Shown piece by piece: positions 20,428-62,390 of a stretch of DNA of 64,000 nt (its first letter is position 1; each line of letters opens with the position of its first letter). The notes under the pieces are model-generated. The model was not told where the DNA came from. It did not search any database and saw only the letters and a program-made list of their open reading frames with translations. The position numbers and the translations under genes were made by a program. This DNA comes from Psammoneis japonica (lineage: Eukaryota): the NCBI GenBank assembly GCA_008632985.1, contig QPGO01000037.1, positions 1 through 64,000 of the forward strand, in the 5' to 3' direction.

Positions 20428-22299
20428 AGATCGGTAACCATTAACAAGGTTGTCAAGCACAAGATTGGCAGACACATTCGTATTGAACACGTGCTTACAT
20501 GTGGTTCGTGCCAATGCACAAGGCTGACAGACACATTGTATCACACGCATACATAGTTTACAAATGTATCCTTTTAAGCCGTAATCTTTTTTAAGCTTGT
20601 AGCTTCCTTCTGAATTCGTTGCCTGAACAGTCAGATCACAACAGGATCTGCATCTCTGATGCCGCTCTGCTGTTCCACGGATTTCAGAGCTGGGGATTGG
20701 ACATGCAGTAGCTGCTCTGGCACGGCAGCCAACAACAACTCACTCCCCATCCTCAAAAAGACCCCAGCTTTGGTGGGTTGGCTCAGGCTGCCCAGATCAC
20801 AAAAGGGTCTGCAACCTGGTGCTGCCCTGCTGTCATGTGGCTGGGGGGTGCTGGGACAGAGCTGCTCCAGCACCAGACACCCATTTTGGCCTAACCCTCT
20901 TTGTGGTTCACCCAGTCTTGCATTGTCTTCAGATGCTGACACTCACCACAAGATGACTTGCTTGGCAAGAGCCACATCTGCAAAGTCTTTGTTGCCTCTG
21001 GGCAAGAAGAAAAAGAAGAAGAACACATGTGCACTCTCTCTCTGGTGACAAGAGAACATTCTCCAGCAAAATTCTTGAAGTGAGTTGGGAGCCTTTTGAA
21101 CAATCTCAGGGAAGTGACAGAGCACAGTTTTGGCTGAGGAGGTGATGCTGTGGCTGAGAGGCACTCAAAACTCTCCAGCAGCACACAGCTCCTTCTCTCC
21201 ATTGCAGTCTGCTGGCTGCTCCTTCTTTGAGTGAACTTTCTTTCTCTTCTTCTTGCTTCTTTAAAGCATGTTGCATTCTGACCATCCTCACAAGTCAGCC
21301 AGCATCATCTTGATTCTTCTGCAAGAAGGAGGCAGCTGGCAGCCACTCAAGCCAATGATGCTTTTTCTGAGAGGTTTTTCCAATGAAGCCACCCTCCTTG
21401 TCAGGATGGCTCTTGTGAAAACCTCCTCAGCTTGCTTGTTTTTGTCCAGAGGGCATCTTTTCACTGGTCTGCTGGACAGTGTGTTGGTGAAGATCACTCC
21501 CTGAGACAGCACAAATCTGTCAACATCAGCATTGTCTCCAAAGTGGTTTGGCAAATCTCTTTGTTTTTTGTTGATGCTGGGTCCAATTTGCCTTCACATG
21601 GAATTGTCTGACAAATGAAGGGTTCTTCACAATGTTGTTGATGGTGGTCTTGGTGCAGCCCCACCATGCCAGCTGAGGTGAGCAAAACTTTTCTGGATGA
21701 CCCTCAGCTGCTGTGGGCCAGCCAGGTTGGGCTGAAACACAGTTGCTGTGTTCAAGACAGACATTTCTCAATGTCCAAAGCACTTGAGAGTCAAACAAAG
21801 CTCTGCTCAGAGGGTTGCCATCAACATTGGTTTACCAAGAAACTTTCTGGCCTTTTGAATGTGCTCTTGATGGACCAAGTCCCTGCAAAAGTCAAAGAAC
21901 ATGTGCACAAAAAGTGCACCACATCCTTCAAAGTGCCACTCAAGTGTTGTTTGCTAATGACATTGGGAGTGGCATGTCCCAGCTCAAGCTCTGTTAGAAC
22001 ATGCTGAAGTTGCCCCTGCAGCCAGGCTTTGGTGGCTTGACCAAAGACAATGTTGAGGTGGGTGGTGCTGGCCCTGCTCACAGCACCCAAGCCAGATTTG
22101 ATGCCACCGCTGGTGTGCAGTTCTTGTGACCAAGCATGTGCACTCTGTCTCAGTCACTTGGCACAGAAAACAGCTTTCAACAAGATGTTGTGCACAACAT
22201 GGTGAGTTTAGATGCAGCAAACAAGAGAGCTGCAAAGGCACAACATTTTGTGTGATTGATTGCTTTTGTCACCATGCCAACATTGGCCAGCAGGACTGA

Positions 22300-23190
22300 G
22301 GCACACAGTCTCCATTCTTGTCACAGCCAAGACAAGCCCCAACAGCATGGGCACACAGATTTGATGGGACACTCTGCAATGGGAGCATCTCCAGACTCAA
22401 CATGCATGCAAAGTTTGCACAATGGCATCAAGTGAAGGCCATCTCTTCCTTGGGCCTCATTTGCTGTGACTCAAAACTTTGCCACCAGGTTTGTGGAGTG
22501 GCATGGCCAGCTGCTCCGCTTGCAGAATTTTGTTAAAAAGCTGCCCATCTGTCAAAACTCAGCAGCCCTCAAGCTTTTTCTCAATCCTCTGCATGATGTT
22601 TTCTCTGTTTCTGTTTGGCTTGCTGACAGCAGAGTGGCTGCAACAGTGACACCAAATGTGGCATGCATCATCCTCTGGTGCTGCTCGCCCACCCAGTGGA
22701 ACATGTCAGCCACAATCTCCCATGGAGCACAGCATCCCCAAATTGCAATTGGACAACATTTGCAAACCACCCATGTGCAATGATGAACAAGATGCAGTGG
22801 CAAGAACAACACATCTTTCAATGATGATGATGGAGATGGCAACAAATTTGGTGATGTGGAAGGTGAGAGCAGCAATGAATGCAAAAACCACAAGGAACAA
22901 CAAAGTCATCAACAGAAAAAGAAAAGAAATGCCAACCACCAAAACTGCAACATCTGTCAACTCATTCAATTGCTGAAAGACCTGCCCATGTTCCACAAAT
23001 GGTGCAAACTTGGCAACCAGCCCACATCTGGCAATGACTGCCACAAGATCAGCAAGAAAGTCTGCAAGCTGATCTCCAGGACAGTCCACTTCACACCACA
23101 CCACAACAGAGCTGGTTGGAAACTCCAGAAAAGTTGTGCAAGCTGCTCCAACTGCCTGTCTTTCTGCACTTCTTTCACCATGCCATGAAC
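22300..23190 (+). pseudogene. Decayed Plavaka/CACTA-like transposase, C-terminal portion
   Basis: Remnants QLIQLLKDLPMFHKWCK...KVCKLISRTVHFTPHHNRAGWKLQK resemble the PR..G.GWK.QK motif I recall for this family. Confidence 0.5.
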
Positions 23191-23399
23191 TTTGACACTG
23201 GACTTGGAGAGTGTTTCTTAACTTTTTCCGCACCCATGCGGTTTCACGCGATTGCCGTTTTAAACAAAATTTAGAATTGTGAAGAACACCACAACAAATG
23301 ACAAAACTCTTCCATTCAAATAAATGCAAATAAATGTGAGCAGTTTCGACCGTGACAGTTTTGCCTGATGGCATTACAAGCCCCAGCTGGGACAGACTT

Positions 23400-24480
23400 T
23401 GGACCTGCAGTTTGGACAATTGCAAAGAGATCCATGCCTCACACAATCTTGCACCTTGTGAAAGTCTTGAATGCTGTGGCTTTTCTCAGACTTTCTTGAG
23501 TCTTGAGCCAGACTGCTGCTTGGTGGTGGAGGATGACATTAATTCCAAATCAGGAGTGCATCCAAGCACTCGCCACTTGGCCTTGTCATGCCATTCCTTG
23601 AAAGCCACATGGGTGGAAGTGACAATGACTGGTTCACCTCAAGAGGATCCCATTGATGTGGTCTTGCCTGTGTTGTTCATGTGAACTGTCAAATGCTTTT
23701 GAGAAACTGCTTTGTGGGGTCTCTTGCTCTGGCTGGAAAAGTCCTTCTGTGCCACTTGCCTGCAAGCATGCACTTGCCATTGGGGCCCTTTGTGACATGC
23801 ACTCCAAATGAAGTTTGTGGGTTGGAAAGGTTTTTTGGGTTGGCCCATGTGCAAGTGTCCAGCAGGAATGATTTCCAAACCTGCTGTTCAAAGCTCCAAT
23901 GTGGAGCTGCAACCATTTTGTCACCATGAGGTTGTTTGGCATTTTCCAGGTTAATGGGAGTCAACTCTTCCCAGGGACAAGGGAAGGTGTTGCACAGCAC
24001 ATCAATGAGGGCAGTTGAGTGCCAAGTTTGAAAGTGCTGCCACAGTGTCATTCAGTGAAAGCAACAACATCATCGCAAAGATGGAAAGGGCCTCTGCAGT
24101 CATCAAAAATGATTTTGTAAAGCTTGGCACAGACACCACAGAGATTGTTGAGAGATGGCAAGTTGGCAAACATGTCCTCTGTGGGGTGGTGGTGCACTCT
24201 GTCAAGGTGGGAATCATCGCCATCAAGACATGTGTCTGTGCAGCCACAACTGGCAGCAGAGTCTTCCTCATCCAGTTTGTTGTTGGCAGCATTCATGGGA
24301 ACACCAGGCAGTGCATCAAACAACTCAGCATCAGACAAGTCCACAGACATGGAGTTGTTTTTGTCTGTGTCACAAAACAGCAATGCAAGTGGAGACATGT
24401 TGTCAAGTTGCAGAGGTGCTGTGTGAGTCGCAAGCTGGACATTGTTGGCAACAGATGCGATGCGTTGCAAATGCCCCAGC
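23400..24480 (-). pseudogene. Decayed Plavaka/CACTA-like transposase, N-terminal/catalytic portion
   Basis: Frameshifted remnants WSFEQQV..FLLD...NP...FG....GKWHRRT...DPTKQFL, GEPVIVT and KWRVLGCTPDLE (family pattern WR.LGYIPDL). Confidence 0.6.
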
Positions 24481-27383
24481 ATTGGGGCAGTGGACTCAGA
24501 TGAGGACAAGCTTTTCTTGGCATCAGCCAATCCTCTTCCAGCACAATGACCAGCCAGGACAACAGCATCACAGAAGAACAACAGAGCAGCAGACTGGGCT
24601 CTGGGCTCTGGAAGATGAGTTGGCCAGCTGGTGGGTGACAGAAGCGCAATGAGGATTGTTGTGCAAGTGGCTGAGGATGCAGGAAAATGACCAATTGCAG
24701 CAAGGGCAGGTGCATTTGGTGCAATGCACCCCCCTGGCAAATGTCTGCTGCATGGCCCAGTTGAAAATGTGCTGCTGCATTGAGCAGCACTGGAGTGTTG
24801 CCTTGGTCTTGTCAGGTCCTCATGCAAAGGTTGGACAGCGTGGCTGCAAAATCAGAAACAAGACACAAAAAGGGCACAAAGGGTGTGTGTGCTCAACTCA
24901 TTTCACAAACAAAAATTTCACAGACTGCACACAACCTCTGTGACATTGGAGCATGTTCGCCTGTGCAACTCAAGCCAGGGTGGTCATTGCTGCTTTTTTA
25001 GCTCAATTTTTGCCCAAAAGGCTCGTGATTTTCTGCTCAAAATTTTTTTGCCATGCTTGCATCATGGCAACCATGGCAAATTTGGATGATGTGGGTGAGT
25101 GCAATGGAGGGGGTCCATCCACAAACTCTTGTTCATTTTACATTCCTTGTGCATCAAAGGTCAGATGCACATCAAATGTTTGTGGACACCCCACTGCATT
25201 TTAGAAAATGAACGGCACATGTCTGCTTGTGCCACCACAACATGTTCATGTTCCAATGCTTGTGCTGTGTTGATTTTTGCATTTCAGGCAAGGCAAAGAA
25301 ATGCCAGAGAGCTCAAGATGCAATGTAAAAAGGCTCAACAGAGTTGTGGTGAGCATGGATCACTGAGAAGAGGACACTTTCAGCCATCTTGCTTCAAGCC
25401 AGAAGTGATGAAAACTGTGCCGGATCTGTGACATGCTCCAAGGATGCACAAGTCAGTTGTGTGCCTCACACCAAATCTCCAGCCCATCCTTGAGTCAACA
25501 AATGACTTCTTTTGCAAGCTTGTGTGAGTGTTGTTGTCCACTGACAAATGTTTGAGTGATGATGTGTGTCCACACTGTTGTGCTCATGCTCTGTTCTTTT
25601 CTCACATTTCTTGTGGAGCATGCTCAGGGAAGTCAAAGAAGTGACAAAAAAGTCAAGATGCAAGGCAAGGCTCAAAAGAGTCACATGGCAGAGAATGTCT
25701 GTTGAGATGGCCATGTCACCACAAAGGACCCTGTGTTGAGTTGTCTGGTCTCTATCTGCTCAGCACTGGCACAGGATGTCTCCACTGATGCTGTGTGATT
25801 GACCAACTCTTTTTTGAATTCATGGCATTTTTGTTGGTGACAGTCCTTGGTTCAGAGTGGCAGAAGAGGCATGTTGCGGCAGTGCTGTCATGTGGAGTGT
25901 TGTGTTTGACAGTTTTCCAGTGTTGTTGACATCAAGTTGCCTCCATTGAACACTTTCTCAGCATTTTGGCATGTGGCAGATGAAAGCAACTGTTCTCCAG
26001 CCAACAGCTCTCCAACAGCTCTTGGCTGCATTGCAGCCTGAACACCTGAGCACCTGAAGCCAACTGTCAGTGCCTCACAGAATGAGATGACAAAGAAAGT
26101 TGGCAGCACAAATGCAAAGCTGAGCACATTGTGGCTTGTGGTTGCTGCTGCTGCTTCCACCACTGCCACTCAGAGGTCTTCTTTTCCTCAGCTTCTTCAC
26201 CTTCATTGGCAATGTCAGTGCCTGATCATTGGAAATCTGCTCCAATCAGATGCTGGCCAGGGCTTTTGTGATTCTCCAGCATGGCACACAAAATCAACAC
26301 CATCTGGAAATGGGAAAGACAATGCAGCTGTTGCAGGTCACCTCTTTTTTGATGCAAGTCTGTGCACTCTGACTGCAAGTGTGCTTGGGAACAGGCATGC
26401 TGTCTTCTGAACAACGCACTCAAAGAATTGATTCAGGAATCTTCAGAGTGCCAGTGCAGATCATGCTGTGGACAACAAAAAGGTTGTGGCAGAGCTTGTT
26501 GATTGTTGGAAAGAGATGATTGCACATGTGAAATGCAATTTTGTGGCATGCATGAAGCATGTGGCATGTGTGCAGAAGATGATGATTTGAGAACCAAAGC
26601 CCTTTTTGCAAAACTGGAGCTAAAAGGTGGGGGATGACCTGACTTAAAAACATGTTGACATTTGGATTGCACATGCAGGGAGCAATTGCAAAATTAAATC
26701 ATGTGTTTTTTGTCAAAAATTGTGCACAACATTTTCATGAAGGTCACACAAAACAGATCAATAAAATGCATCATTGTGGCCATTCTTTTTCAATGTGCTG
26801 CTGTCAAAGAATTGAAAAGCACTGGCAACAGAGTCACAAATTTTGATGGGAAGCATGGTTTGAATTTGTGGTGGGGTGGGCTGGCTCTTCCACTGGAACA
26901 ACACCCAAGTTTTGACCTGATGAACAAACAAGTTGTCAACAACCTGCAACTGCAAAATGTGGCAAGGAAGAAGAAGCAGAGGGAAACCTCTGGCAACCAA
27001 GGGCAGTGGCAGCATTGAAAAGGACAAGAGCAAGTGGGGGCACCAGTCTGCAAAATGAGAAATTGAAGAGGTGGCACACAAAGAGCTGCTTCCAGAAGCA
27101 AAATTCTGTGCAAAGGTCAACATGGCCAGTGGTGGAAAGACATCAAGGCTGGTCCACAAAAACACAGCCAGTGTCAAATTTGGCAAGTAGTGCCAGGTGG
27201 AAACAAGGGAAGACTGGGCAAAAAAGTGTGCCCTGTGTTCCATCAATGCAAATCAACACAAAGAGGAACACTTTCACGCAGTCAATCTTGAAGAATTTGC
27301 TGAGTGACAAGCAGCAAGTGAGTTTTGCACTCTGCAGTTACAAGACATGGCTTTGAACACTTGTGTCATGCATTTGTTAAGTT

Positions 27384-28340
27384 GTGTCACCAGCTGAGCC
27401 AGCCAAGGGTGGCAAAAGCCCCGTGAAGAGCAAAGGAGGACATGGAAGAGGACAAAGAGGCAAAAACAGTGAGAAAGCAGCTGCTTGGGATGACTCAACC
27501 ATGAATGCAGTGGTTGAGGAGAAACAGAGGAACAAGGGCATGCACAATTGGCTTTGTGACAATGCACTCAAGTTCTGCAAGAGCATGACAGTTTGGAAGA
27601 AAGATGGCAGAGACAGGAAACAACAAGGTGATGGAGCTGACTGCAGCAAGTGATGAGGCTCTTGGGCTGTTGACATTAGAGAGCTGCTGAAAGACATGGG
27701 GGAGCACAAGGCAATGAAGGCCAGGAAGATCCAAGAAGGAAGACAGGAAAACAACAATGAAGAAAAGCCACCAGATCCTCTCTGCACAAAACTCACAAAT
27801 GATGCAAGACATGAGGAGATGAAGGAACAGAATCTCTGCACAAAACCCACAAATGATGCAAGACATGAGGAGATGAAGGAACAGAGCATTTCAATGAGTT
27901 GCACAGCAATGTGCAAGAGGACAGGTCAAGTGAGATGGGTTGGAGTTCAACGGTTGGTGCAGCAGGAACAAGAAAGAAGAATGCAAGAAAAAGGGAAAGA
28001 AAGAAATGACCAGGAAGAAGCTGGCACAGAAGGAAAAGAAAGCACAGGCCACATTGGAGCTGCCAAGCAATGACAAGGATGGCAAAGGAGGAAAGAAGGA
28101 ACAAAAGATCAGGATGAGAAAGACAACGCCAGCCATGACAAGAGTGAGGATGCAGAGGGCAATGATGAAGTCAGCAAAGAAGAGCCTGGCAGAAGGGAAG
28201 CAGTGCAGCAAAAGCTTGACAGCAGTTGGACAGCACCAAACAGTTGAGTTGCAAATGAGCCACTGTCCAACCAGCCTTGTTGGCAACAAGCAGCAATGCT
28301 TCAGAGCTTGGCAACAAGAGAGGCATTGGTTGATTTAATG
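27384..28340 (+). pseudogene. Decayed transposon accessory ORF (charged, Lys/Glu-rich)
   Basis: Broken frames containing PLCTK...ARH...SISMSCTAMCKRTG and a K/E-rich tail, within block A. Confidence 0.35.
27780..27885 (+). repeat. 54-bp direct tandem duplication
   Basis: ctctgcacaaaac(t/c)cacaaatgatgcaagacatgaggagatgaaggaacaga at 27780 and 27834. Confidence 0.9.
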
Positions 28341-31285
28341 CCAACAAAATTGACAACATGAAATTAAACACAAGAGTGCTTTTGCTGGTCAGATTTGGCA
28401 GGGGCAATGTTGTGCAATCTCATGGCAAACAGGAGAGGGTTCTGACAGGGATGGAGTGCATGTTGATTGGAGCAGGGGGGCCTGATGCTGACAGCAGTGA
28501 GAGCCAAAGACACAGTGGTAGACAGTGCCTGCATGGTGTCCATTGTTGATGGTTGGGGAGAACAACAAGATTCAATTGTCTGCATCTGAGCCAGCCAGTT
28601 TGCCATTGCCTGAGTTTTCAACATGAGAGGGCACATTGCAGTGATCAAGTGGGCTTTCTTTCACAGCAAATTTTCCACTTTTTAGAGACACTAATTGTCA
28701 ACTGTGACAGACAGCCAGTTGCTCAGATGGTGATGTGTTGTTGCCTGTCACAGATGCCAATTTTCATGTCCACGCTGTTTTGGCACCCCCACCACCAGCT
28801 CTTCCTGCTGTTGAAGCTGAGGCAGGCCTCTCTCCTCCTTGTCCTTGAGACACAGTGCTGTCCCTCACAGATTCTGTGGTGCAGCACCAGGCAATCCCTC
28901 CACCAACCACCTTTGTGAGGCTCTGCTCAGGTTGTTGACTTTGCCACAGATGTCAAAACTTTGTGCAATGGTCATGGAGTCACACAGCATGTTGACAGGC
29001 ATCCACATCCAACTGGGCTGACACATGGTGACCAGCCTGAGCACTTGACAAAGTGCTGCAAAATCTCAGCATCATCTGCACTGACAGGAAGAACCAGAGT
29101 TTTTAGGATGCTGCTTCAAGTGCAGATTCAGAGTTGGGAACTCAGGCATGTTGCGCATTGCCTCAGCAGATTGAAGGTGCATTTTAAGAGCACTGGCTGT
29201 CACCTGGTGGCAGGGCTGGAGTGCAAGCTGAGAAAGAATGCGGCAAGTGCACTCAAGAAGGACTCCATGAAAACTGTGATCAGCACCCCCCCCCCCTGCA
29301 GATGTCAGCATGTTGCTGGCAATTTGGGTGCTGATTTTTGTGCTGTTTGGGAGTGCCATGAGCTCCTGAGTGGCAACAAATGGCAACACCTTGCTCTTAA
29401 TTTTGGGCATCTGTTTGTTGAAATCATGCTGCCATGACTCAAATGTGGCAAAATGATGTGTTTTTTGAGCTTCAATTGCACATTGGGAAAGCAGTCCAGC
29501 CAAACACACAAAACAGCTGCACCCAGCTTGGGGTGGCAGACTCATGGGTGCAGCACATGTGGTGTCATGTTGACAGCACTCAGACAGTTGGTTGGGGCCC
29601 ATCAAATCCTGTGGAACAGCCCATGGCTGGGAAAATGCTTGCTTTGACAGAAGCTAAAGAGGAGCAAAGCCATCACTGTCATTGGTCCTCTGTGCAGAGC
29701 TCCACGCATTTTGGTCTGTAAGTTGCCAGCTCACGCCAACATTTGTGGTGATGAACTTGCAGCAGGCTGCTGTGACCACATCCCAAGTGATGCAATCAAA
29801 AGAGACCACTCAACAGTGTCTGTTTGATGTGCCAGTTGCAGGAAACAGCAACAACAGCGTGTGACAGCTTGCAGCTCCAGTTGTTGATGGAACAGAACAG
29901 CTCAGCAGGAGACTTGCACACACACCAAAATCATGATTTTCTCAGCCATGTGATTTCAGATTTGAGCTTTTGTTGAGTGAGGAAAACACACCCAGGAGAA
30001 AAACATCAAGTCACAGGAGGCTCTCATTTTTGGATTGAGGGTGGTCATTTCCCATGCCCATCCTAAAATCACTGTGTCACCCAAGTGAACACACAAAAGC
30101 CATTTTCACACATTCACAACCAACCACACACAAAAACAAGAACACATCAGGAGGCACCACAGTCGAGGCACAAAAATGATGTTCCACCCTTCAACAGCAC
30201 CAGAAGGATCCCAAGAAACTCTGCTGGAGTCAAGCATTGGCACCAGGTCACAGCAACAAAGACTCCTGCTCTGACTGTGAAGCCCATGAAGTGTGGAACA
30301 TGATGCTGGAAACATGGCGGGACAATCCACCCCAGCTTGTTTGTGAATTTCTCAGTCGTGTTGACAAGCAACATGCAACCCGCTGCATCAACAAAGATGA
30401 CTCCAATGTAGATTTGAAAGACTTGGCTCTCTGTGATCCCGGCTTTCTGAATGTTGTCAAAAAAGTTGCAAAAAAGTTGAGTGCTGGATTGCCACAGGCA
30501 GTGAAGGCCATCTTGAAGACAGAGGCAGGTTGTCGTGACACCCGACACCCAGCTCACCCATGCCCAGTTGCATCAAAAGCAGAAGCACACAAGATGGATG
30601 GAACTGAAAATGCTGGAAAGAACAGCTTTGTTGGAACTGCTGCTCTCTCTGATCCTGTGTGTGTGCGCAGCTCCGCTGAGATCAAACTGCGGCCCGGTGT
30701 CTGCAGCTCTGATGCCAGAGTGCAAAAAGTTTGTGTCAGCACTGGTCAGTGCACTTTGGAGTGCAAAGTGGCAAAGGCTGTTGCCCATGCATTGGCCATG
30801 TCAAAGGGACTGGAGCCCATTGCAATGGGAAGCCAAGTCTCTCGGCATCATCTGCGCTGACAGGAAGAGCCACGCAGAGCAGCTTTTGGCGCAGTGCTCC
30901 AAACAGAGAAACAGTGCTCTGACCACACTCAAGAGAGAGGATTGATTCTATCAAAACTGTGATCTGCACCCCGTCTTTACTGATGTCAATGTGTTGCTGG
31001 CAAATTCTGTTGCTCTTTTGGCGCCACATTGGGAAACACAGCGATTTGCCAAACACCAACCACAGTCGCATGCATGTATGCGCGTGCGTGCGTTCGCGTT
31101 CGTTCGCAACCAAAAATGTGAACTGCACATCAGCCCAACTCCGATCATTTCTATCATGTCGCTCATTTTTTTCTTCCTTGTCGCTTATCGCCGCACCTTG
31201 GACCTTACTGCCACCATGAACCATCACCTCACTCCTCCCGCTTCTAGCCTGTAGCAGAACAAGAGATTAAATACATACAGAAGCT

Positions 31286-42393: not shown

Positions 42394-42488
42394 NNNNNNN
42401 NNNNNNNNNNNNNNNNNNNNNNNNNNNNNNNNNNNNNNNNNNNNNNNNNNNNNNNNNNNNNNNNNNNNNNNNNNNNNNNNNNNNNNNN
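42394..42488. other. Assembly gap (95 N) preceded by a poly-G run
   Basis: Run of N in the sequence. Confidence 0.99.
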
Positions 42489-51038: not shown

Positions 51039-51204
51039 TACTATTGCCGAAAAACAATGGCCTGTTGCTAGGAATCGACCGTCGTCATTGGCAAAACGTG
51101 AATGTGAATTTTTGAAGCCGAGATAGATAGATCTTGATGCCATCGATGTCGGTCCGTCGTCCGAGCATTCGATGCGTCCCTCCACGCTGTGAATTTCATT
51201 CAAG

Positions 51205-52700
51205 CCTCTGTGCTCAGATGCACACCACCAAAGGTTAGGGCCCTAGATGGGGCCAGAGCTGCAACAAGGAACTCACCTGAAAAGGCCAGCCACGATGGCT
51301 CTTGGTAGCCACAGTGCTTTGCATCCAGCAGCACCCTCGGTGCCTTTGGCTTGCAGCTGTTTGGTTGGCTGGTCTTGTTTTTTGGGAAACAAGGTGAGAT
51401 TGGGCCAGATCAGCAAGAGAGGCACCTTGCAAGACGAGCCAAACAAGCTCTCAAGCCACTGCCTTGTGTCTGTTAGTGCAGAAGGCAAAATGCCCCCCCT
51501 TGGTGCATGTCTGGCTTCAGCTTGCAGCGTGGTTTTCTTGCCTGGCTGGCCCTCTTGTTTTCTGAGATCAAGGTGAGACTGGGGCCAGGTCTGCAAGAGA
51601 CTCACTTTGCAAGATGAGCCAAACATGGCTCTCAAGCCACTGCCTTGTGTCTGCCAGTGCAGAAGGCAAAGGAGCCCCCTTGGTGCATGCCTGGCTTCAG
51701 CTTGCAAAATGTGGTTTTCTTGCCTGGCTGGCCCTCTCATTTTCTGAGATCAAGGTGTGAGAGACTGGGGGGGCCAGATCTGCAAGAGACTCACCTTGCA
51801 AGATGAGCCAAAACATGGCTCTCAAGTCAATGCCTTGTGCCTGCCAGCACAAAGAGCAAGAGACACTCCTTGGCACATGCCTGACTTTGGCTTGCAGCAT
51901 GGCTTGGCTGGCTGGCTCTTTTGTTTTGGCACACCCCTCTGCTCTGCAAAAGTGAGGAACGAGTCTGCTGGTCTCAGGTTGCAGACAACCCAGGTGAGGT
52001 TGGGCCATGTCCACTGCAATGCTGGTCTCAGGCTGCAGACAACCCAGGTGAGGTTGGGTCATGTCCGTCACAAGGGGCTCATCTTGCAAGGGTCAAGCAC
52101 AGCTCTCAAGCACCACTGCCTTCTTGTGCCCAGCAGCAGCAAAGGTCCCTCTTGCTTGGATGGCACCCCCCAGCTCTCACAGCTGCTTGGCTGGTCGGTG
52201 GTTGGTTTTGTTTTGGCACCCTTCCACCCTCAAATTTAGATCTGCAGCCCCAGAGATGCCCAGCAGCACAGCAGAGACCCCCGCTGGTGCCGTGGCTTGC
52301 AGCAGCTTGCCAGCTTGCTGTGGTTTCACCTTTTTTCAGTGGCGGCCTTCCACTCCTCAGTTGAAAACGTGAGCACACACACAAACCACAATGCCCGACT
52401 GGATGGTGATTGATTTCTCAACGGACACCCACAAAAACAAACACAACCCACAACAAGACAAGCGACAACAAACCACCACCCAAAACAGAACATTCCATTT
52501 CAACCATTGCTGCAATGCCAAACACTGCAGGTTGCATTAATTCCAAACAATGAGCCCAAAACAAAAACAAAACCATTCTGATTCGACAACATGCATTCTT
52601 GGGAGCAAAGCCAAACATCGGCATGAACGCTTGCTCAACTTTCGAAGCATTGGTGGGTTTGTTGGCCGGGCATTTGTTTCTCACCCATGCGCCATTTGGA
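51205..52700. repeat. Block B core: CpG/TpA-depleted repeat with ~180-bp tandem units and a 54-bp duplication
   Basis: Units beginning caaggtg at about 51390, 51569 and 51751. gctggtctcagg...catgtcc repeated at 51967 and 52021. Confidence 0.85.
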
Positions 52701-53500
52701 GGATCTCATGAAAGTCGTTGCTAGAAAGGTGTGCCAGGTGACTGCACTTTGCCAGGACACAACCACAGAGGTGGAAGGCCCTGGATTTGGATCGGGTGGA
52801 ATTGGTGGCTTCCGGCATCACGACCAAAGAAGAAAGTGAAGGTCAAGGAACAACCGTCGTGCTTGGCAACCCCGGTTACGGCAAAGCACAATTTCAAATT
52901 TTCAAATGTCAGTGGTGAGAAGTTTGTGCAAGCCACCTTTCAGTTCCCCGAGACTCCTCATGGCCCGATGGAAGTGACGTTTGCAGAAGGAGGCTGCACG
53001 ATGGACAAGTTCATCCAAGTGAACCAAACGTTTCAAACCGAAGACGACAATTGCACGTTTGGAGAGAAGATTGCGCTCCAAGGAAAGCCCTTGCGAAAAT
53101 GCATTTTCTCTTTGACCGAGTCCCTGATGATTTTGAGCTCAGGAAAAGGTCCGGGAGTGGAAAAGGTCACAAGATTGGGATGTCAGTTTATCGGACCTAC
53201 GACATTGTGGAAAGCGATGCTGATGCCCCGAAAGGGACAGATTTACGCCGGTTTTTTGGGGAGAAATTACATGTTTGTATTTTCACTGGAAAAATCACTG
53301 ATATTTTAAGCGATGGTAAGACCTTCTTACATGATGTCAACACTTTTGAGGGATGTTCCGGTGCTGTGGTCTTTCTACTTGACCAAAACCAACCAGATGG
53401 CTTCGATACAAGTCTCGCGGGCATGGCAGTTGGAGTCCATTCTGGAGGGGTTGATGTGAACAATAACATTGGATTCAAGCTACCCAGACAAGCACCATAG
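52620..53500 (+). pseudogene. Trypsin-like serine peptidase gene with intact 3' end and degraded, TpA-depleted 5' half
   Basis: VTAKHN (His motif) in one frame; HDVNTFEGCSGAVVF...VGVHSGG in another. Confidence 0.7.
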
Positions 53501-55586: not shown

Positions 55587-56059
55587 CTGGTTTCAATGCG
55601 TGATTTGGTGTAACGCGGTACATCAGAGAACAGAGCAACATGGCTCCAGGTCTTTGTAGGATCCCAAACACTGACACTTTCATGGAGAGAGAGTTATTAA
55701 TGGCACTTGTGTGCGTTGATTCGCAATGAGAAAGTGACTTTGAGTTTCTCTTAGCTGGCTCCCAAAGTCTTCAGTATGGAAAAAAGTTACGCGTCATCTT
55801 CTCGTTCGTATTGTCTGTGTCATGTAGGACTGTTTCGTTCCGACCGTTAAATTTACAGTTACGAGCACAAATGAGCATGGAAAGTATACGTGGCTGTATA
55901 ATGTGACGAATTGCACACGAGTTGTTGAGAACTTGGCGAGAGACAGATAGCAGCCACACTGCTAGATTCTGTTGACGAACATCTGACGCATTCTACACAT
56001 CGTCTACGCAATTGGCTGGCCATGGTTAGGCCAATGTTCAAATCAAGCATTAGAGAAGC

Positions 56060-57500
56060 AAAACGGCTTGCTGCCAGAGGCAAAAGAACCATTGCAAGTT
56101 GTTTCGGGGCGTGGCATCACACACCCTCGGGTGATGCCGATCCTGGCTGATCGCCATGTGCTCCTGCCGCACTGTTGGTGCACTGGGGATGTGGGTTAGC
56201 TTGTTGCCGGAGTTGCAAGGTGGAAGCACAGCAGCACTTTAAACACAGAGTTTTGGCTTTGTTTTGCCTGCAGTCCACTGTCTCACAATTCGCGATGACA
56301 CTTGTTTTGCTGCCCATGTCGACATGTTCCAGGTCTAGAGGTGGGACCTTGTGCTGCTGAACTGTGACATCGACAGTTTTTTTAATCGCGTCACATGTCG
56401 CGCACGCACATTTCTGCATGATTTTGGCAAAATTTTGTGTCATTTTACAGTGCAGTCATCAGGCGATCCATTCAACAACTTTTGACATTTTTTTCTTCTA
56501 CGCCATTCTCGAGTGTTTAAAGAATGGTGCAGGGCAGGCATCATCCAAAGCTTTGAGTGTGCACAGGGACATGTGTGCTGCAAACTTGGCCATTTGTTTT
56601 TTGTCGAAGACAAACAAATTCATTGACCAGAGTGCGAACCACAGAGCTCGCACGTAGAATTCTACGGGGCAAATGTCACAAAAAGTCCCGGTGTGCCACC
56701 TCTGGGACTGGAACCCGTCTGTCATTGTCATTGCTGTTTGTTGTTGCTGAGAGCGCCTCTTTCACAAACCCTGGCTGCAGAAAGTGCAAGAGTGCTTGAA
56801 GTGTGCATGGAGCAGCCAATGACAAAGAAGATGTTTGTGCTCAGTGCCACAGCATTGTGACCTCAGATGGAGCACACAAGCTTGAAACAAAATCAGAAGG
56901 GCATTGAAGCTGAAGTTGACAAGGCAATGCCTTGAACATCATGGGCATGATTGCAATGTTGCTCTTTTAAATTTGGGCCTCCAGCTGAGTTTCTGCTCAG
57001 CCCAGATCCTGTTTTCTCTGTTTTTTCCAAAATGTCATGAGTGGGCATGAAACTCATGGTGTGTGCAGCACACATGCAAAGTTTGCTGCACCAATTGTGT
57101 GTGTGTGTTGAATGATCAAGTGCAAAGAGACAAACCCAACAGTGTTCTTCAATGTGTGGTTGCAAAACAACAGAGCTGTGGCCCAGATGTTTGAAAGAGC
57201 CACACACAGAGCTTGTGCAGCACATTTTTTGCCAAAGCAAGGGTGTTTTTTTTTCCTCGTCAGTGTCAATTGTTCCCACACACTCGCTTTTGGGGAAAGA
57301 CAATGGTTTTTGTTCAAAATGCATCTGCAGAGTTCACACCTGAACTCCACAACTCCACCAATGCAGGGGGGGGTGCTGCTGTTGGCCACCCAGCCACAAG
57401 CTTCAAAATGTGCTTCACTGCCAAAACTCTGCACCAAAAAAGGCACTTCAGAAACATGAAAAGAAAAAAAAAAATTTCATGCAAAATTGAGTCGTGAATC
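56060..57500 (-). mobile_element. Block C: CpG/TpA-depleted decayed element, possibly a MULE/Mutator-like transposase
   Basis: Composition as in block A. Remnants LFALDHSTH (cf. MULE ..LDGTH), EKNRENRIWA, and a SWIM-like VDC...KT.C..C....Q.NP.P. segment. Confidence 0.5.
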
Positions 57501-58389: not shown

Positions 58390-58968
58390 CTCTGACATGC
58401 CGATAAAACACATTTTATCTGGTTTATTGCGTGATGGACTTGGGATGAAACAAGTTAGTGACAAGTACTATCGGGCTATCGCTCCTTGTAGGACGGGGGC
58501 ACCAGTTGCGTAGCTGCAAATAATGGACCTCAAAAAAGGCGCTGCATTGCGGGGCAACATGTAGCAACAGTTACTAAAGAGATGTTTTTAAAAGCCTGAA
58601 CACCTGGTGGCCCCAAAAACAAGTTGAAATGTCTGGGTCGAGCGGCAAATTGAATCAGACAGCCGGGAAATACAAAGTGCTCCTGACCCGAGCGCGTTGC
58701 GTTGGTCTTGGATGGCATTAGGTCTAATAGGTCGGTGCCTCCATTGGACGTGTGTGTCCGAAGGGTGTTGTGGTAATTGCTTACTAGGCCTACTAGAGCT
58801 CTAGATAGTAGCTATAACTGATCATTTGACAGGTGCTCACGACTCACGACTTGAATAATAGTTGCACGCCTTTGTTGATTCGTGGTTCAAACGGAAGTCG
58901 TGCCGCGTCCGGTCAGTGATGAACCATTGGTCCGACGGAGCCATTATTTGTCCAAAGCAAATCTCAAC

Positions 58969-59550
58969 ATGGGAAACTCGGCTTTCTTTTCTAATTCGAC
59001 AGAGTGGGCTTCAGGGATGCGCCCAAAGCCAAGGAAGATATTGGTGCTTGGTTTGGACGCGGCAGGGAAAACAACCCTTTTGCATAATCTCAAGCTGGGC
59101 GAACCGGTGACCACAATCCCCACGATCGGATTCACCGTGGAAGAACTCAGAACTCAATCCAACAACATTGTTGCGTGGGAAGTGGGCGATAGAATTGGTT
59201 CTCGACTCTTTGAACGTCACCATTTTAAAGACACGGATGGTGTCGTCTTCGTCGTGGACTCGAACGACCGGGAGCGAATGGATCAAGCGAGAGATCAACT
59301 ACACCAACTTTTCAAGGAAGAAAAATTGCGCGGAGTTCCATTGTTGATCATATGCAACAAGCAAGATTTGCCTGAAGCCATGTCACCCCAAGAGATTCTT
59401 CTGCAGTTGGGGGTTCCCAATGATCAAGATGACTTGGAACGACCCATGCGTGCTCTGGGGTGCGTTGCCAAAACAGGTCAAGGACTACATGATGGCTTGA
59501 TCTGGTTATCTGAAGTCGACAAGATTGTACATGATGACATCTCAAGTTGA
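58969..59550 (+). CDS. Divergent ADP-ribosylation factor (ARF)-family GTPase, possibly an early pseudogene
   Basis: MGN start, [28 protein letters not shown] and NKQDLP. G3 motif degenerate (WEVGDR). Confidence 0.85.
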
Positions 59551-59882
59551 GTCCAACGAACCCACTTCCTCGTCCGTACTACATCTTGTTGAGCGGGCGA
59601 GGAAATGCGGGGAGTGGGGGAGAAGTGGAGACTCCAGAAACACACACAGAAGGATGCACCCGGCGACACTGAGTTACCCTTCAACAACCCTTTCTGAAAA
59701 TTGAAAATACCCGACATGAGACATGGATTGCGCGAGACTGGAGATATCATGATTGAAGCAACACCTAGACAATTTAAAAAAAAAAAATACAACACACCAC
59801 ACATACGTTCCACTCCATATTCTCGACTCGATTCACACAGTCACACACAAACTATTTGTCCTTGACGACATCATCATCTTCT

Positions 59883-60338
59883 TCATCCATACGTTGCGTA
59901 TCCGTGCCACCCATCTTTTTTGACGCGAATACAGAGATGAGGGACTGGTTGCGTGTGACCACCATACTGACCATGACTAACGTAACGGTGTTCGACCCAT
60001 TCAAAGGCATCTACTTGATAGCCATATGACTCAAGTTGACGATTCATTTTTGGAACCCATTCCTTTTCGAGACGAGCCACCGAAGCTTCAAACATTTGAT
60101 AGCCACAACACGCCTTGGGAACTTCCTCGGCAATGGTTATTGGAAGACCGTGCGGATCAAAAATATCGCCTTCGAGGAGCTGGCGGGGTGTGGTGGCGTT
60201 GGCCCATTCACTCCCTTCGTCGGCACCGCGAAGAATGTACCGGCGAGGACGAAAGCAGGCGCATTCTTCGTAAAGATAAGCAGCAATTACATCTTCTTCA
60301 TTCTTCCAACGTGGAGTGCAAGAGCAGCAACAACCCAT
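59883..60338 (-). CDS. Hypothetical protein with N-terminal MGCCC acylation-like motif
   Basis: 151-aa ORF from ATG 60338 with normal composition. Confidence 0.65.
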   Translation of the reverse strand: MGCCCSCTPRWKNEEDVIAAYLYEECACFRPRRYILRGADEGSEWANATTPRQLLEGDIFDPHGLPITIAEEVPKACCGYQMFEASVARLEKEWVPKMNRQLESYGYQVDAFEWVEHRYVSHGQYGGHTQPVPHLCIRVKKDGWHGYATYG

Positions 60339-60559
60339 AATTCGTGAGAGTAGGGTGTAGGGCAAAGGAAGAAAGAAGACAGAGATGTTATAATGTAAAG
60401 ATTCTCAAATCTGGAATCTGTATCCAAGATCCGAAAAGAAACGAAGCGCGCGAAAATTCGGCGCAAAAACAAGCTAAGGTTACCTGGTGTGTGTGATAAG
60501 TCAGCGCAAATCCGGGCAGACATGCATTGTGTCCCCCAAAGCACGTGCTTGTAGACAAG

Positions 60560-62390
60560 GTCTTTCTGCTTCGTAGGAATGACACCTCCAAATCGAAAAG
60601 TTTTGCCGCCATTTTTGCTGCTGTTGAGAATGTCCTCTTCAGCCAACAGCCCCCAACAATTTGACTCTGCCTTCACAAATTTGACATCTGGGTGCACCAA
60701 CAGGATGCCAGACATTTCACACAAACAAAGAATGAACTCAGGGCAGATGACCACCAGCAAAGAAGGGCTTTTCCATGATGGCAATGACTGGTTTGTGTGT
60801 GCACCACACCGTTGCACACAAATCCACACTTTTCTTTCCAAACATGGCCCTCTTTTTTCCCCAAATGAAGAACTCTGTAAGAAGCCCCAATGATTGTTGC
60901 AGACTTGCAATGGCGTGCACCATTGTCCACAGCAGTGGTGCAGATGAAGCACTGTTGTCAAACTTGCTGTAACTTGGCACACACAACAAAAAAATTGTTT
61001 GGTGAAAATGCATGGTTTTTGACGTTTTTGCAAAAAAAATCTGCAATTGCCCATGACTCACAACTCACGACAAGCAGTTGTGCACTGTTGCTGGCTCTTG
61101 TGGCTCAAACTTCAAAAGCAAGCAGCCATGCAATGCCCAACCAAGCACTTGTCTAACAGAGCTGTTGTTGGTCACAAAAAGCAAATCTCAACGTGGGAAA
61201 CCTGGCCTCCTTTTGCAATTTGAAATGGTGGGCTTCATGGATGCACCAAAAGCTGAGGAAGATGTCAGCACTTGGCTTGGATGCAGAGGCAAAACAAAGC
61301 TTTTGCACAATCTCACAAGCTCAGCAAACTGACAACCACTGTTCCCACAGTTGGACTCACTGTGGAAGAACCACAGAGCTCAATCCAACATCTTTGTCAC
61401 ACAGAAAGTGGGCAACAGAAGCGGGCCTTGGCTCTCTTTGAATTTCACCACCCATCATTGTCACGGAGCACATGGATCAAGCAAGTGACCAACTGCACCA
61501 ACTTTTTGAAGAGAAAGAAAAATTGCATGGAGCTCTGTTGTTGATCATGTGAAACAAGCAAGATTTGCCCAATGTGATGTCACCCAGGAGATTCTTCTGC
61601 AGTTGTTGGGGGTTCCCAATGATCAAGATGTGACTTGAAACGACCCATGCGTGCTGTGGGATGTGTTGCCAAAACAGGCCAAGGACTAGAAAATGGTTTG
61701 ATCTGGTTCTCTGAAGTTGACAAGATTGCACAGGATGATGTCTTAGTGGAGGCCAAACCTCAAGGCAAAGCTGAGTCTGACAAACCCATGTCCTCGTCGG
61801 TGCCACACATTGTCGATCAGCTTGGTTGCAACCCTTCTGACACCAACAAGTGGAGAGTCCTGTCCTCAAGAGTTTCCATCCTGATCAGCAGAGCACCGAA
61901 TGTCCTTTTGCAAAGGCTGTCAAACTCTGGGGCATCATGTCCAAGAAAATGGCAGCCAATGCTGAGGCCTTGTCAGCATTTTCATGTCATGGGTTTTTCG
62001 CTGGTCTGATTTTTGTTTTTGAAATTGTGCACAGGCAAAAACAATGCACGAACACATTTTCCTTTGAGTGGGTTAATTTGTTGGGCAGTTAAATTCTCTA
62101 ATTCACATGAGTGTAAAACACACAACAGTTCATTGAGCCTGTTGTGCTTTCCAATTTCCAAAAGTTTTGAGAACAAAAACGCGTTTTTGCCGTCAGAGTC
62201 AGTGACTGCGTCCGTCACACAGTCACAGAGGAGAGAAACAATGGACAAACGATGTCGCACAAAGACAGACGATGGCTGCGGAGTGTCCAATCTGAAATCT
62301 TTGCTGTTCCATCAAGTTCCATGTTTTGGTCATCGCACATGACATCTGGATGTCGCACAACGGTCGGGATCAAAATCTGCTCAAAACTCT
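60560..62390. other. Block D: TpA- and (in its core) CpG-depleted region containing the ARF duplicate
   Basis: Near absence of TA and CG from about 60620 to 62100; TA-only depletion from 62160 to 62380. Confidence 0.85.
61050..62009 (+). pseudogene. Hypermutated duplicate of the ARF locus (homologous to about 58835-59600) plus a remnant C-terminal extension
   Basis: Colinear matches such as aagcaaatctcaac, aacaagcaagatttgcc, gggggttcccaatgatcaagat and gttgccaaaacagg. Start ATG->GTG, indels and TGA stops. Confidence 0.92.

What the first reader, a model, noticed from the sequence alone, without database searches (positions are those of the whole stretch)
20605..31100. Transposon blocks in which both CpG and TpA are erased: candidate undescribed RIP-like genome-defence system
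Seen: about 10.5 kb with an abrupt left edge where TA and CG nearly vanish (1 TA, 0 CG in 21001-21600) while TG/CA dominate. The same signature recurs at ~51.2-53.2, 56.1-57.5 and 60.6-62.4 kb, whereas host genes in between have ordinary TA and CG. Known: CG loss is explained by deamination of 5mC in CG-methylated diatom transposons, and fungal RIP (CpA->TpA) creates TA. Neither removes TA. Inference: a second process converts TpA to TpG/CpA (A->G on either strand) in silenced DNA. Together the two arms destroy Tyr and CGN-Arg codons and so inactivate elements. I do not know of a described eukaryotic pathway that does this.
Basis: partly seen in the sequence, partly recalled or inferred. Interest (0 to 1): 0.93.

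Follow-up and report, generated by a model that had tools for sequence, protein, structure and literature searches.

The report
Diatom relic DNA stripped of CG and TA
Several stretches of dead, non-coding DNA in a diatom genome have lost nearly all their CG and TA letter pairs to TG/CA; CG loss is expected in methylated DNA, but no described process removes TA this way.

Summary
Five segments (14.1 kb, 22% of the window) have TA o/e about 0.07 and CG about 0.18, with TG/CA about 1.8 and unchanged GC%. No background 500-bp window comes close (0 of 914). An independent contig set reproduces the bases and bridges both edges at single-copy depth.

The depletion is mutational. One block holds a dead copy of the intact Arf-like gene 1.5 kb away. 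In that pair 12 of 14 TA became CA/TG and 31 of 38 CG became TG/CA, evenly on both strands. A younger patch keeps half of its sites, so decay was gradual.

The erosion is confined to the blocks. Ordinary intergenic DNA has TA 0.61 and CG 1.01. TA loss reaches 200-660 bp past CG loss on one flank of each block.

The "transposon" label is unsupported: no domains, homologues, terminal repeats or extra copies. A RIP-like repeat-triggered defence is unlikely, because the intact Arf copy is untouched.

The CG arm fits known 5mC decay. The TpA-specific A:T-to-G:C arm matches nothing I found in print. I favour a DNA-level adenine deaminase needing a 5' T, aimed at silent chromatin. That mechanism is inferred, not shown.

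The parts
20620..23213 (.). Block 1a: CG- and TA-erased relic DNA
   Evidence: HMM segment: TA 8, CG 6, TG 284, CA 308 in 2594 bp. No Pfam domain.
23214..23352 (.). Short patch of normal composition that splits block 1; multi-copy in the genome, probably a younger insertion
   Evidence: 6 TA and 7 CG lie within 23219-23375. Depth is 619 in bin 23204-23670 against about 70 elsewhere, with loose ends at 23179, 23210, 23390 and 23442.
23353..31064 (.). Block 1b: CG- and TA-erased relic DNA, single copy, content unidentifiable
   Evidence: TA 31, CG 42, TG 883, CA 905 in 7712 bp. 0 Pfam families in six read-through frames. 0 homologues. No terminal repeats.
30836..31147 (.). Overhang of block 1: TA still erased, CG nearly normal
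   Evidence: TA 3 (obs/exp 0.16), CG 17 (0.86). TA-only and CG-only segmentations differ here.
51188..52789 (.). Block 2, including a 180-bp tandem array (about 51390-51896)
   Evidence: TA 7, CG 21, TG 161, CA 179. TRF period 180-181, 2.8 copies. Units differ mostly by transitions, with TG opposite CA at 1-5 sites per pair.
52618..53185 (.). Overhang of block 2
   Evidence: TA 2 (0.06), CG 25 (0.71).
56059..56719 (.). Overhang of block 3 (left side)
   Evidence: TA 9 (0.21), CG 27 (0.67).
56692..57489 (.). Block 3
   Evidence: TA 1, CG 4, TG 97, CA 91 in 798 bp.
58829..59596 (+). Intact Arf-like GTPase gene (CDS 58969-59550) with about 140 bp upstream: the unmutated parent or paralogue
   Evidence: Pfam Arf PF00025, E 1.4e-49. 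Normal composition. Aligned range; ORF limits.
60610..62048 (.). Block 4
   Evidence: TA 5, CG 14, TG 154, CA 169.
61043..61820 (+). Dead copy of the Arf-like gene inside block 4 (stops, frameshifts)
   Evidence: Transition-tolerant alignment score 818 against a shuffled maximum of 46.5. Residual Arf match E 2.7e-5, 24.1 bits, cutoff 22.3.
61541..61719 (+). Less-diverged patch of the dead Arf copy (89% identity); keeps 1 of 3 TA and 2 of 4 CG; probably refreshed by gene conversion
62176..62383 (.). Overhang of block 4
   Evidence: TA 0, CG 13 (1.06).

Best explanation
The blocks are old, non-coding, single-copy relic DNA lying between ordinary diatom genes. At least one block is a dead local duplicate of a host Arf-like gene.

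Within these domains two dinucleotide-specific, strand-symmetric transition processes have run almost to completion over a long time. (1) CpG became TpG/CpA, the expected decay of CG-methylated DNA by 5-methylcytosine deamination. (2) TpA became TpG/CpA. This is an A:T-to-G:C transition confined to the TpA step and running about as fast as the CpG decay. It is roughly an order of magnitude faster than transitions at other A:T sites.

Shown here: the direction of change, the strand symmetry, the TpA specificity, the restriction to the blocks, and the gradual time course.

Inferred: that the domains are methylated or silent chromatin, and the enzymology. My favoured mechanism is deamination of adenine in DNA (A to hypoxanthine, read as G) by an enzyme that needs a 5' T, as tRNA-adenosine-deaminase-type enzymes do. 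I suppose it is recruited to a silent chromatin domain slightly wider than the methylated core.

Consequences, also inferred: Tyr codons, TAA/TAG stops, TATA boxes and AATAAA signals are irreversibly erased, and spurious long ORFs appear.

My confidence that a domain-restricted TpA-specific mutational process exists is about 0.8. My confidence that the mechanism is adenine deamination is about 0.35.
For: Direction and specificity. In the Arf pair (58829-59596 vs 61043-61820) TA went 12 of 14 to CA (7) or TG (5), with 1 kept and 1 changed to TC. CG went 31 of 38 to TG (13) or CA (18), with 3 kept. In the oldest part (473 columns, 73% identity) all 8 of 8 TA and all 30 of 30 CG are lost.

Per site, T in TpA changed by transition in 7 of 18 cases against 31 of 279 for other T (Fisher p = 0.0036). 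TpT is 0.08, TpC 0.11 and TpG 0.14.

Pure transitions inside YR steps: the YR-step fraction is 0.2383 in blocks and 0.2399 in background, and GC% is unchanged.

Domain restriction: TA obs/exp is 0.50 in coding DNA, 0.61 in 15.9 kb of ordinary intergenic DNA and 0.57 at the codon 3-1 boundary, against 0.07 in blocks. CG is 0.98, 1.01 and 0.93 against 0.18.

Gradual decay: the 89%-identical patch keeps 1 of 3 TA and 2 of 4 CG. Other sites show ts:tv of about 2:1 (52:26).

Steady state: block counts are TA 52, CG 87 and TG+CA 3231. At equilibrium these imply TA loss at least about 31 times faster than TA creation.

Separable arms: pooled overhangs (1753 bp) have TA 0.13 but CG 0.76. This fits a TpA-only process better than a general T-to-C at TpR.

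Real DNA.
Against: Only one ancestor/derivative pair exists in the window, so direct evidence rests on 14 TA sites. No whole genome was available. That left several things untested: genome-wide generality, TE family alignments, and the presence of any deaminase, DNMT or TET/JBP gene.

There are no methylation, chromatin or expression data, so 'silent/methylated' is an assumption.

No eukaryotic DNA adenine deaminase is known to me (recalled).

The surviving TAs are strongly context-biased: 40 of 48 lie in TTA/TAA contexts, and 2 of 48 lie in ATA-type contexts against 47% of background TAs. New creation by C-to-T at TpC could explain this as well as enzyme specificity could. In the dead Arf copy 2 of 3 TAs are new.

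A mutation-accumulation study in another diatom reported no TA hypermutability genome-wide (PMC6604790, passages read). That is compatible with domain restriction but gives no support.
Confidence: 0.55

Rival explanations
1. By-product of repairing T:G mismatches in methylated DNA. Frequent 5mC deamination recruits repair that is biased or error-prone. One version is a thymine glycosylase or VSP-like activity that resolves T:G or T:hypoxanthine pairs at YpR steps to C:G. Another is long-patch resynthesis by an error-prone polymerase. On this view TA loss is collateral damage of the CG arm, not a separate targeted enzyme.
For: TA and CG erosion co-localise. The TA overhang of 208-661 bp on one flank of each block could reflect excision tracts running out of the methylated core. 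Precedents, from passages read: human TDG excises T opposite hypoxanthine and fixes A:T to G:C (PMC4041421). Full-length TDG excises pyrimidines at TpG, CpA, CpG and TpA steps (PMC11488719). Repair of T/G mismatches mutates flanking DNA (PMC3999860). Mismatch-triggered gap filling by Pol eta gives A/T mutations at WA motifs (PMC6423074). VSP repair is held to eliminate CTAG in E. coli (PMC5337935).
Against: The human glycosylase strongly prefers TpG and is weak or inactive at TpA (PMC4041421). Here T-to-C at TpG is 0.14 against 0.39 at TpA. In the overhangs TG/CA stay high (1.45/1.63) while CG is only 0.76, so TpG was not converted to CpG at a comparable rate. The Pol eta WA signature predicts AA/TT to be hit too, but TpT is the lowest class (0.08) and AA/TT are not depleted.
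Confidence: 0.2
2. A dedicated RIP-like genome-defence system. Duplicated or transposon DNA is recognised and then hypermutated at both CpG and TpA to inactivate it.
For: The outcome is irreversible inactivation. Block edges are sharp. One block is a duplicated gene copy. Diatoms have DNMT4 enzymes related to fungal RID whose function is unknown (PMC9998398, passages read).
Against: The intact Arf copy 1.5 kb away is not mutated, whereas RIP hits all copies. No transposon feature was found in any block. Depth is single-copy. A roughly 9-copy young insert inside block 1 is unmutated. Decay is gradual, and ordinary neutral divergence accompanies it. A 98%-identical 54-bp tandem duplication inside block 1 is also unmutated.
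Confidence: 0.12
3. A genome-wide neutral mutation bias against TA. It is visible only in the few long stretches free of selection, and CG loss is added locally by methylation.
For: Background TA is already under-represented (obs/exp 0.54). The blocks are the only long non-coding stretches in a compact genome.
Against: 15.9 kb of ordinary intergenic DNA has TA 0.61, and the weakly constrained codon 3-1 boundary has 0.57. Both are about 8 times higher than the blocks. Block edges are abrupt, within tens of bp. The only diatom mutation-accumulation study I read reports GC-to-AT bias and no TA hotspot (PMC6604790).
Confidence: 0.06
4. Foreign or intrinsic composition (integrated virus or other element that avoids CG and TA), or hyper-edited RNA copied back into DNA, or a sequencing artefact.
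For: Many RNA viruses avoid both CpG and UpA (recalled). Blocks 1-3 have no identifiable content.
Against: The dead Arf copy lies next to its parent. It shares 140 bp of upstream DNA and a conversion-like patch. Changes are strand-symmetric: CG to TG 13 vs CA 18, TA to TG 5 vs CA 7, and TG 1181 vs CA 1228 in block 1. That argues against single-strand RNA editing. Independent contigs reproduce the bases at flank-equal depth.
Confidence: 0.05

Closest known systems
Decay of CG-methylated DNA by 5-methylcytosine deamination (vertebrate genomes, methylated transposons of diatoms and other eukaryotes)
   Same: CG becomes TG and CA in equal shares on both strands. The change is confined to a domain, gradual, and about 10 times faster than other transitions. 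This accounts for the CG arm.
   Different: It does not remove TA. CpG-depleted vertebrate DNA keeps TA at roughly 0.7 obs/exp (recalled). Here TA falls to 0.07.
Fungal repeat-induced point mutation (RIP) and RIP-like TpCpG mutation in basidiomycetes (PMC3318451, listing and start of abstract seen)
   Same: Dinucleotide-specific transitions permanently inactivate non-essential DNA. The fungal enzyme RID is related to diatom DNMT4 (PMC9998398).
   Different: RIP changes only C:G pairs, typically creates TpA and AT-rich DNA, hits every copy of a repeat, and acts in bursts before meiosis. Here TA is destroyed, GC% is unchanged, the sister copy is spared and decay is gradual.
Depletion of CTAG in E. 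coli and Salmonella attributed to very-short-patch repair (PMC5337935 passages; Bhagwat & McClelland 1992 cited there)
   Same: A TA-containing word is lost to CA/TG forms as a side effect of a system that guards methylated cytosines. This is the only known case I can name in which TA loss is tied to 5mC.
   Different: It is bacterial, genome-wide, limited to the CTWGG-like context and modest in size. Here every TpA context is affected (ATA-type most completely) and only within domains.
Second phase of immunoglobulin somatic hypermutation (mismatch-triggered gap filling by Pol eta; PMC6423074 passages)
   Same: A deaminated cytosine triggers A:T mutations nearby, so one lesion produces two arms.
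   Different: The hotspot there is WA (TA and AA) with strand bias and many transversions. Here it is TA only, symmetric, and almost purely transitions.
A-to-I editing by ADAR and tRNA-adenosine-deaminase-type enzymes, including engineered adenine base editors (recalled, not from a call)
   Same: A is read as G, with a preference or requirement for U/T 5' of the edited A.
   Different: Those enzymes act on RNA naturally and on one strand. Here the change is fixed in DNA on both strands and confined to a chromosomal domain.

Membership tests
Fungal-type RIP | Only C:G-to-T:A transitions, usually CpA to TpA, giving AT-rich, TA-rich products | tested here: not met
   TA is destroyed (obs/exp 0.06). 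A:T-to-G:C changes are abundant. GC% is unchanged.
Fungal-type RIP | All copies of a duplicated sequence are mutated | tested here: not met
   The intact Arf copy has normal composition and a full Pfam match of E 1.4e-49. Only the other copy is mutated.
Fungal-type RIP | Dependence on a RID/DNMT4-type methyltransferase and a premeiotic stage | not testable with these tools
   No whole genome is held. DNMT4 occurs in many diatoms (PMC9998398), but the species is unknown.
5mC-driven CpG decay | CG to TG and CA, symmetric, with TG/CA excess | tested here: met
   CG went 31 of 38 to TG (13) or CA (18). TG/CA obs/exp is 1.8.
5mC-driven CpG decay | The region carries CG methylation | not testable with these tools
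   No methylome is available. Only contigs of one DNA run were laid.
   0 credible Pfam families in 94 + 82 frame segments and in 6 + 18 read-through frames of the blocks, apart from the Arf remnant. 0 hits for two long frames. Heavy decay could hide them: the Arf remnant kept only 24 of 168 bits.
   Transition-tolerant search of all block chunks against the window found only the Arf pair and one 150-bp internal repeat. Depth equals the flanks.
Pol eta / somatic-hypermutation-type A:T mutagenesis | WA (TA and AA) hotspot | tested here: not met
   Transition fraction is 0.39 at TpA but 0.08 at TpT (= AA), the lowest class. AA/TT are not depleted.
Thymine-glycosylase / VSP-type biased T:G repair | T-to-C favoured at TpG at least as much as at TpA | tested here: not met
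   TpG is 0.14 against 0.39 for TpA. Overhangs keep TG/CA at 1.45/1.63 with CG at 0.76. The n is small and CpG re-decay confounds the core, so this is a weak rejection.
ADAR / TadA-type adenosine deamination | Strong preference for U/T immediately 5' of the target A | tested here: met
   A preceded by T changed in 0.39 of cases, against 0.08-0.14 for other 5' bases. 12 of 14 TA were changed by transition.
ADAR / TadA-type adenosine deamination | Acts on RNA, so changes sit on one strand | tested here: not met
   TA to TG 5 vs CA 7. TG 1181 vs CA 1228 in block 1. The process works like such a deaminase but at the DNA level, so it is not filed as a member.

The most novel reading that the evidence does not exclude
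Diatoms possess a previously undescribed DNA-level mutator that converts A:T to G:C specifically at TpA steps within silenced chromatin. In effect it would be a natural, chromatin-targeted adenine base editor. Together with 5mC decay it permanently disables promoters (TATA), poly(A) signals, Tyr codons and stop codons of unwanted DNA. That would make it a genome-defence arm with no known counterpart in any eukaryote.
Probability: 0.3. Interest if true: 0.95.

Novelty: new variant of a known kind. Interest (0 to 1): 0.8.

Why it matters
Context-specific hypermutation of silent DNA is known in two forms: CpG decay and fungal RIP. Both act on cytosine.

A domain-restricted process that erases TpA through A:T-to-G:C transitions, as efficiently as methylation erases CpG, would be a third form. 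It implies an unknown enzymology: DNA adenine deamination, thymine modification, or strongly biased repair.

If it is an enzyme, it would interest work on genome defence, on the evolution of mutation rates, and on base-editing tools.

There is also a practical consequence. These blocks lack TAA and TAG stops and so produce long spurious ORFs that gene callers will annotate. The TA/CG/TG/CA signature is a simple way to flag them, and to map ancient silent chromatin in diatom genomes without epigenomic data.

Tried and rejected
1. Whole genome: none is held. Genome-wide scans, TE-family alignments and searches for deaminase, DNMT4 or TET/JBP genes were therefore impossible.

I used stop-to-stop segments and then read-through with X at stops.

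3. An R/Y-alphabet coding-potential model trained on 25 intact ORFs separated too weakly: median 3.8 in genes against a shuffled 99th percentile of 4.6. I dropped it. There are weak hints of fossil coding signal at 24.0-24.5 and 27.3-28.3 kb only.

4. Two long frames of block 1 were searched. There were 0 hits at E<=0.01 among 1074 candidates and 0 hits in 1.84 billion representatives. I read them as spurious ORFs.

5. The tandem units of block 2 show TG opposite CA at 1-5 sites per pair. This fits independent decay but cannot tell CG ancestors from TA ancestors.

6. Search for the orthologous neighbourhood with the flanking eIF2D-like gene in metagenome contigs: 2 loci at 35-39% identity on contigs of 2.3 and 5.8 kb, with no depleted stretch. 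Uninformative.

7. Earlier scan notes: nothing on this genome, and only unrelated CpG-poor phage cases.

9. Sequencing runs: no RNA holder is listed, so nothing can be said about expression.

10. Literature searches (with passages read) found no description of joint CG and TA erasure in diatoms or other eukaryotes. This covers only the held open-access library and the terms I used.

11. I considered a UV-type origin. C-to-T at dipyrimidines may create the residual TTA/CTA-context TAs, but it does not explain TA loss.

Full report
**Observation**

In 20605-31100 there are 45 TA (obs/exp 0.06) and 63 CG (0.11). TG and CA are at 1.85 and 1.84. The rest of the window has TA 0.54, CG 0.99 and TG/CA 1.17-1.19. 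GC content is the same inside and outside, about 0.48.

The specific count for 21001-21600 is exact: one TA, at 21262, and no CG between 20723 and 22108. The left edge is abrupt at about 20600.

The three further blocks are real too: TA 0.08-0.10 and CG 0.30-0.39. A two-state HMM over pyrimidine-purine (YR) steps places the eroded DNA at 20620-23213, 23353-31064, 51188-52789, 56692-57489 and 60610-62048. That is 14.1 kb, or 22% of the window.

None of 914 background 500-bp windows has TA<=3 together with CG<=3 (minima 5 and 11). Of 232 block windows, 158 do.

The blocks are not simple repeats. TRF found one 54-bp duplication in 12 kb. The fraction of YR steps is the same in blocks and background, 0.2383 vs 0.2399. 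That is what pure transitions inside YR steps would leave.

**Is it real DNA?**

One public run (X1, possibly the source sample) holds the stretch. Its contigs cover 19001-33000. Two base differences and two one-base insertions are at full depth inside block 1. The contigs bridge both edges (19973-23406 and 27856-33000). Depth is 62-75 in the block and in the flanks.

The blocks are therefore contiguous, single-copy chromosomal DNA and not an assembly or chimera artefact. X1 is only partly independent of the assembly.

**What organism, and what lies around the blocks**

The flanking ORFs are ordinary eukaryotic genes. They include ankyrin proteins, an eIF2D-like protein, Ku, riboflavin synthase, a DnaJ protein and a DUF6824 protein. 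The closest relatives of the riboflavin synthase are all diatoms (Chaetoceros, Attheya, Odontella and others) at up to 77% identity. This is a compact diatom genome of unknown species. Each block fills a long gap between genes.

**What the blocks contain**

I scanned 94 frame segments of block 1 and 82 of blocks 2-4 against Pfam. I then scanned all six frames read through with X at stops. Blocks 1-3 gave nothing above the curated cutoffs.

Two long open frames of block 1 have no homologue. One search gave 0 hits among 1074 candidates. The other gave 0 hits in 1.84 billion representatives. These frames are best read as artefacts of the missing TAA and TAG stops.

Purine/pyrimidine-space seeding and a transition-tolerant Smith-Waterman of every block chunk against the whole window on both strands found no LTRs, TIRs or similarity between blocks. 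They found only a 150-bp internal repeat (score 97, null maximum 49.5).

The "transposon" label therefore has no support. Heavy decay could still hide a transposon. The one identifiable remnant keeps only 24 of the 168 bits that its intact relative scores.

**The key pair**

Block 4 contains a dead copy (61043-61820) of the intact Arf-like GTPase gene at 58969-59550. The intact gene matches Pfam Arf at E 1.4e-49. The remnant matches at E 2.7e-5. BLASTN first showed the pair. A transition-tolerant alignment extends it to 58829-59596 vs 61043-61820, including about 140 bp upstream of the start codon (score 818, shuffled maximum 46.5).

Taking the functional gene as the proxy for the ancestor:
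- TA: 12 of 14 became CA (7) or TG (5), 1 was kept and 1 became TC.
- CG: 31 of 38 became TG (13) or CA (18), and 3 were kept.
- TG to CA and CA to TG double changes occur at 13 of 110 sites. This is about the number expected if ordinary transitions create CG or TA intermediates that then decay at once.

Per site, T in TpA changed by transition in 7 of 18 cases against 31 of 279 for other T (p = 0.0036). C in CpG changed in 23 of 50 against 21 of 219 (p = 1.7e-8). Other sites show transitions to transversions of 52:26, an ordinary neutral pattern.

So the depletion is mutational, strand-symmetric and specific to the two palindromic YR steps. It struck a host-gene copy while sparing its functional twin 1.5 kb away.

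**Tempo**

In the oldest part of the pair (473 columns, 73% identity) all 8 TA and all 30 CG are gone. In a 174-column patch of 89% identity, probably refreshed by gene conversion, 1 of 3 TA and 2 of 4 CG survive. Loss therefore scales with divergence.

Both dinucleotides decay roughly an order of magnitude faster than ordinary transitions. No burst needs to be assumed.

Inside block 1, a 140-bp patch of normal composition (23214-23352) coincides with about nine-fold depth and loose ends. It is probably a young insertion and is unmutated. A 98%-identical 54-bp duplication is unmutated as well.

**Domain restriction**

TA obs/exp is 0.50 in 32 kb of ORFs, 0.61 in 15.9 kb of ordinary intergenic DNA and 0.57 across the codon 3-1 boundary. 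CG is 0.98, 1.01 and 0.93. The blocks have 0.07 and 0.18.

A genome-wide neutral bias that shows only in junk DNA is therefore unlikely. A mutation-accumulation study in another diatom reports GC-to-AT bias with CG/CC/TG as hotspots and no TA hotspot (PMC6604790, passages read).

**The two arms are partly separable**

I segmented TA and CG separately. On one flank of each block, TA depletion overhangs CG depletion by 208-661 bp. Pooled, these 1753 bp have TA 0.13 but CG 0.76, with TG/CA at 1.45/1.63. I found no comparable reverse overhang: CG depletion leads by about 120 bp at the left edge of block 2 only.

**Context of surviving TAs**

In the block cores, 40 of 48 residual TAs lie in TTA/TAA contexts: TTAA 14, CTAA/TTAG 17, GTAA/TTAC 8 and ATAA/TTAT 1. 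ATA-type contexts make up 47% of background TAs but only 2 of the 48. GTAC is absent.

Normalised to one-step precursors, the ratio runs from 70 per 1000 (TTAA) to 0 (ATAC, ATAT, GTAC). In the dead Arf copy only 1 of 3 TAs is ancestral, and the two new ones are CTAA and TTAG.

The survivors thus look largely like new TAs made by C-to-T at TpC or CpC. They are removed fastest when a purine, especially A, precedes the T. Residual CGs show no such context bias.

At steady state the block counts are TA 52, CG 87 and TG+CA 3231. These imply that TA is lost at least about 31 times faster than it is created, and CG about 19 times faster.

**Mechanism**

The CG arm is what CG methylation predicts. Methylation of transposons and repeats is documented in diatoms (PMC9998398, PMC2806351 passages). 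Methylation of these blocks is an inference.

For the TA arm I weighed four ideas.

(i) A DNA-level adenine deaminase that needs a 5' T. This fits the strict TpA specificity (0.39 against 0.08-0.14 for other contexts), the strand symmetry and the TA-only overhangs. No such eukaryotic enzyme is known to me.

(ii) Biased T:G or T:hypoxanthine repair by a thymine glycosylase or VSP-like system. Biochemical precedents exist (PMC4041421, PMC11488719, PMC5337935). The known enzyme prefers TpG, however. Here TpG is not converted to CpG at a comparable rate.

(iii) Mismatch-triggered patch resynthesis by a Pol eta-type polymerase (PMC6423074, PMC3999860). This would elegantly tie both arms to one lesion and explain the overhangs. 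But the WA signature fails: AA/TT sites are the least mutated class.

(iv) Thymine modification at TpA, such as 5-hydroxymethyluracil (recalled from dinoflagellates). This is untestable here.

I favour (i) at about 0.35, with (ii) and (iii) together at about 0.2.

A RIP-like, repeat-triggered defence (about 0.12) is disfavoured. The sister Arf copy is spared, repeats inside block 1 are unmutated, and the tempo is gradual.

**Comparison and novelty**

The phenomenon works like CpG decay or RIP, in that it is dinucleotide-specific and irreversibly erodes dispensable DNA. It fails the defining tests of RIP: it destroys rather than creates TA, it changes A:T pairs, and it spares one copy of a duplicate. 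Its second arm is outside what 5mC chemistry explains.

Six literature searches aimed at this signature and the passages I read found no description of joint CG and TA erasure. That covers only the held open-access library.

I file it as a new variant of a known kind, namely context-specific hypermutation of silent DNA. A substantial chance remains that the underlying enzymology is categorically new.

**Limits**

The direct evidence for direction rests on one pair with 14 TA sites. The compositional evidence is overwhelming, but it is indirect. I had no genome, methylome, expression data or second species.

Noticed in passing
window 23214-23352 (context 23179-23446): A short patch of normal TA/CG density inside block 1. 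It coincides with about nine-fold contig depth and several loose ends, so it belongs to a young multi-copy element of unknown type. At 23326 about half of the laid depth reads A where the window has G, which would make the window's TG a TA in those copies.
   Followed up: partly
window 22706-23374 (-), 24051-24851 (-), 60287-61054 (-): Long open reading frames (222-267 aa) inside or running into the eroded blocks. They have no Pfam match, and the two that were searched have no homologue. They arise because TAA and TAG stops have been erased, and gene callers are likely to annotate them as genes.
   Followed up: partly
window 61541-61719 vs 59344-59518: A sub-segment of the dead Arf copy is 89% identical to the live gene, while the rest is 73-76% identical. 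This suggests a gene-conversion event between the gene and its pseudogene.
   Followed up: partly
window 27779-27885: A 54-bp unit duplicated in tandem at 98% identity inside block 1. It lies in a strongly purine-skewed stretch (27-28 kb: AT skew 0.37, GC skew 0.23).
   Followed up: no
window 51390-51896: A 180-181-bp tandem array (2.8 copies, 84% matches) forms the left part of block 2. It is possibly a satellite-like repeat.
   Followed up: partly
window 35110-38877 (-): A 1255-aa ORF with no Pfam family. It contains an internal duplication (37058-37709 vs 37946-38590, 70% identity).
   Followed up: no
window 62473-63636 (+): A gene with an HNH_2 endonuclease domain (E 1.5e-6) starts about 90 bp beyond the right-hand TA-depleted edge of block 4.
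   Followed up: no
window 42394-42488: A run of 95 N, which is an assembly gap.
   Followed up: no
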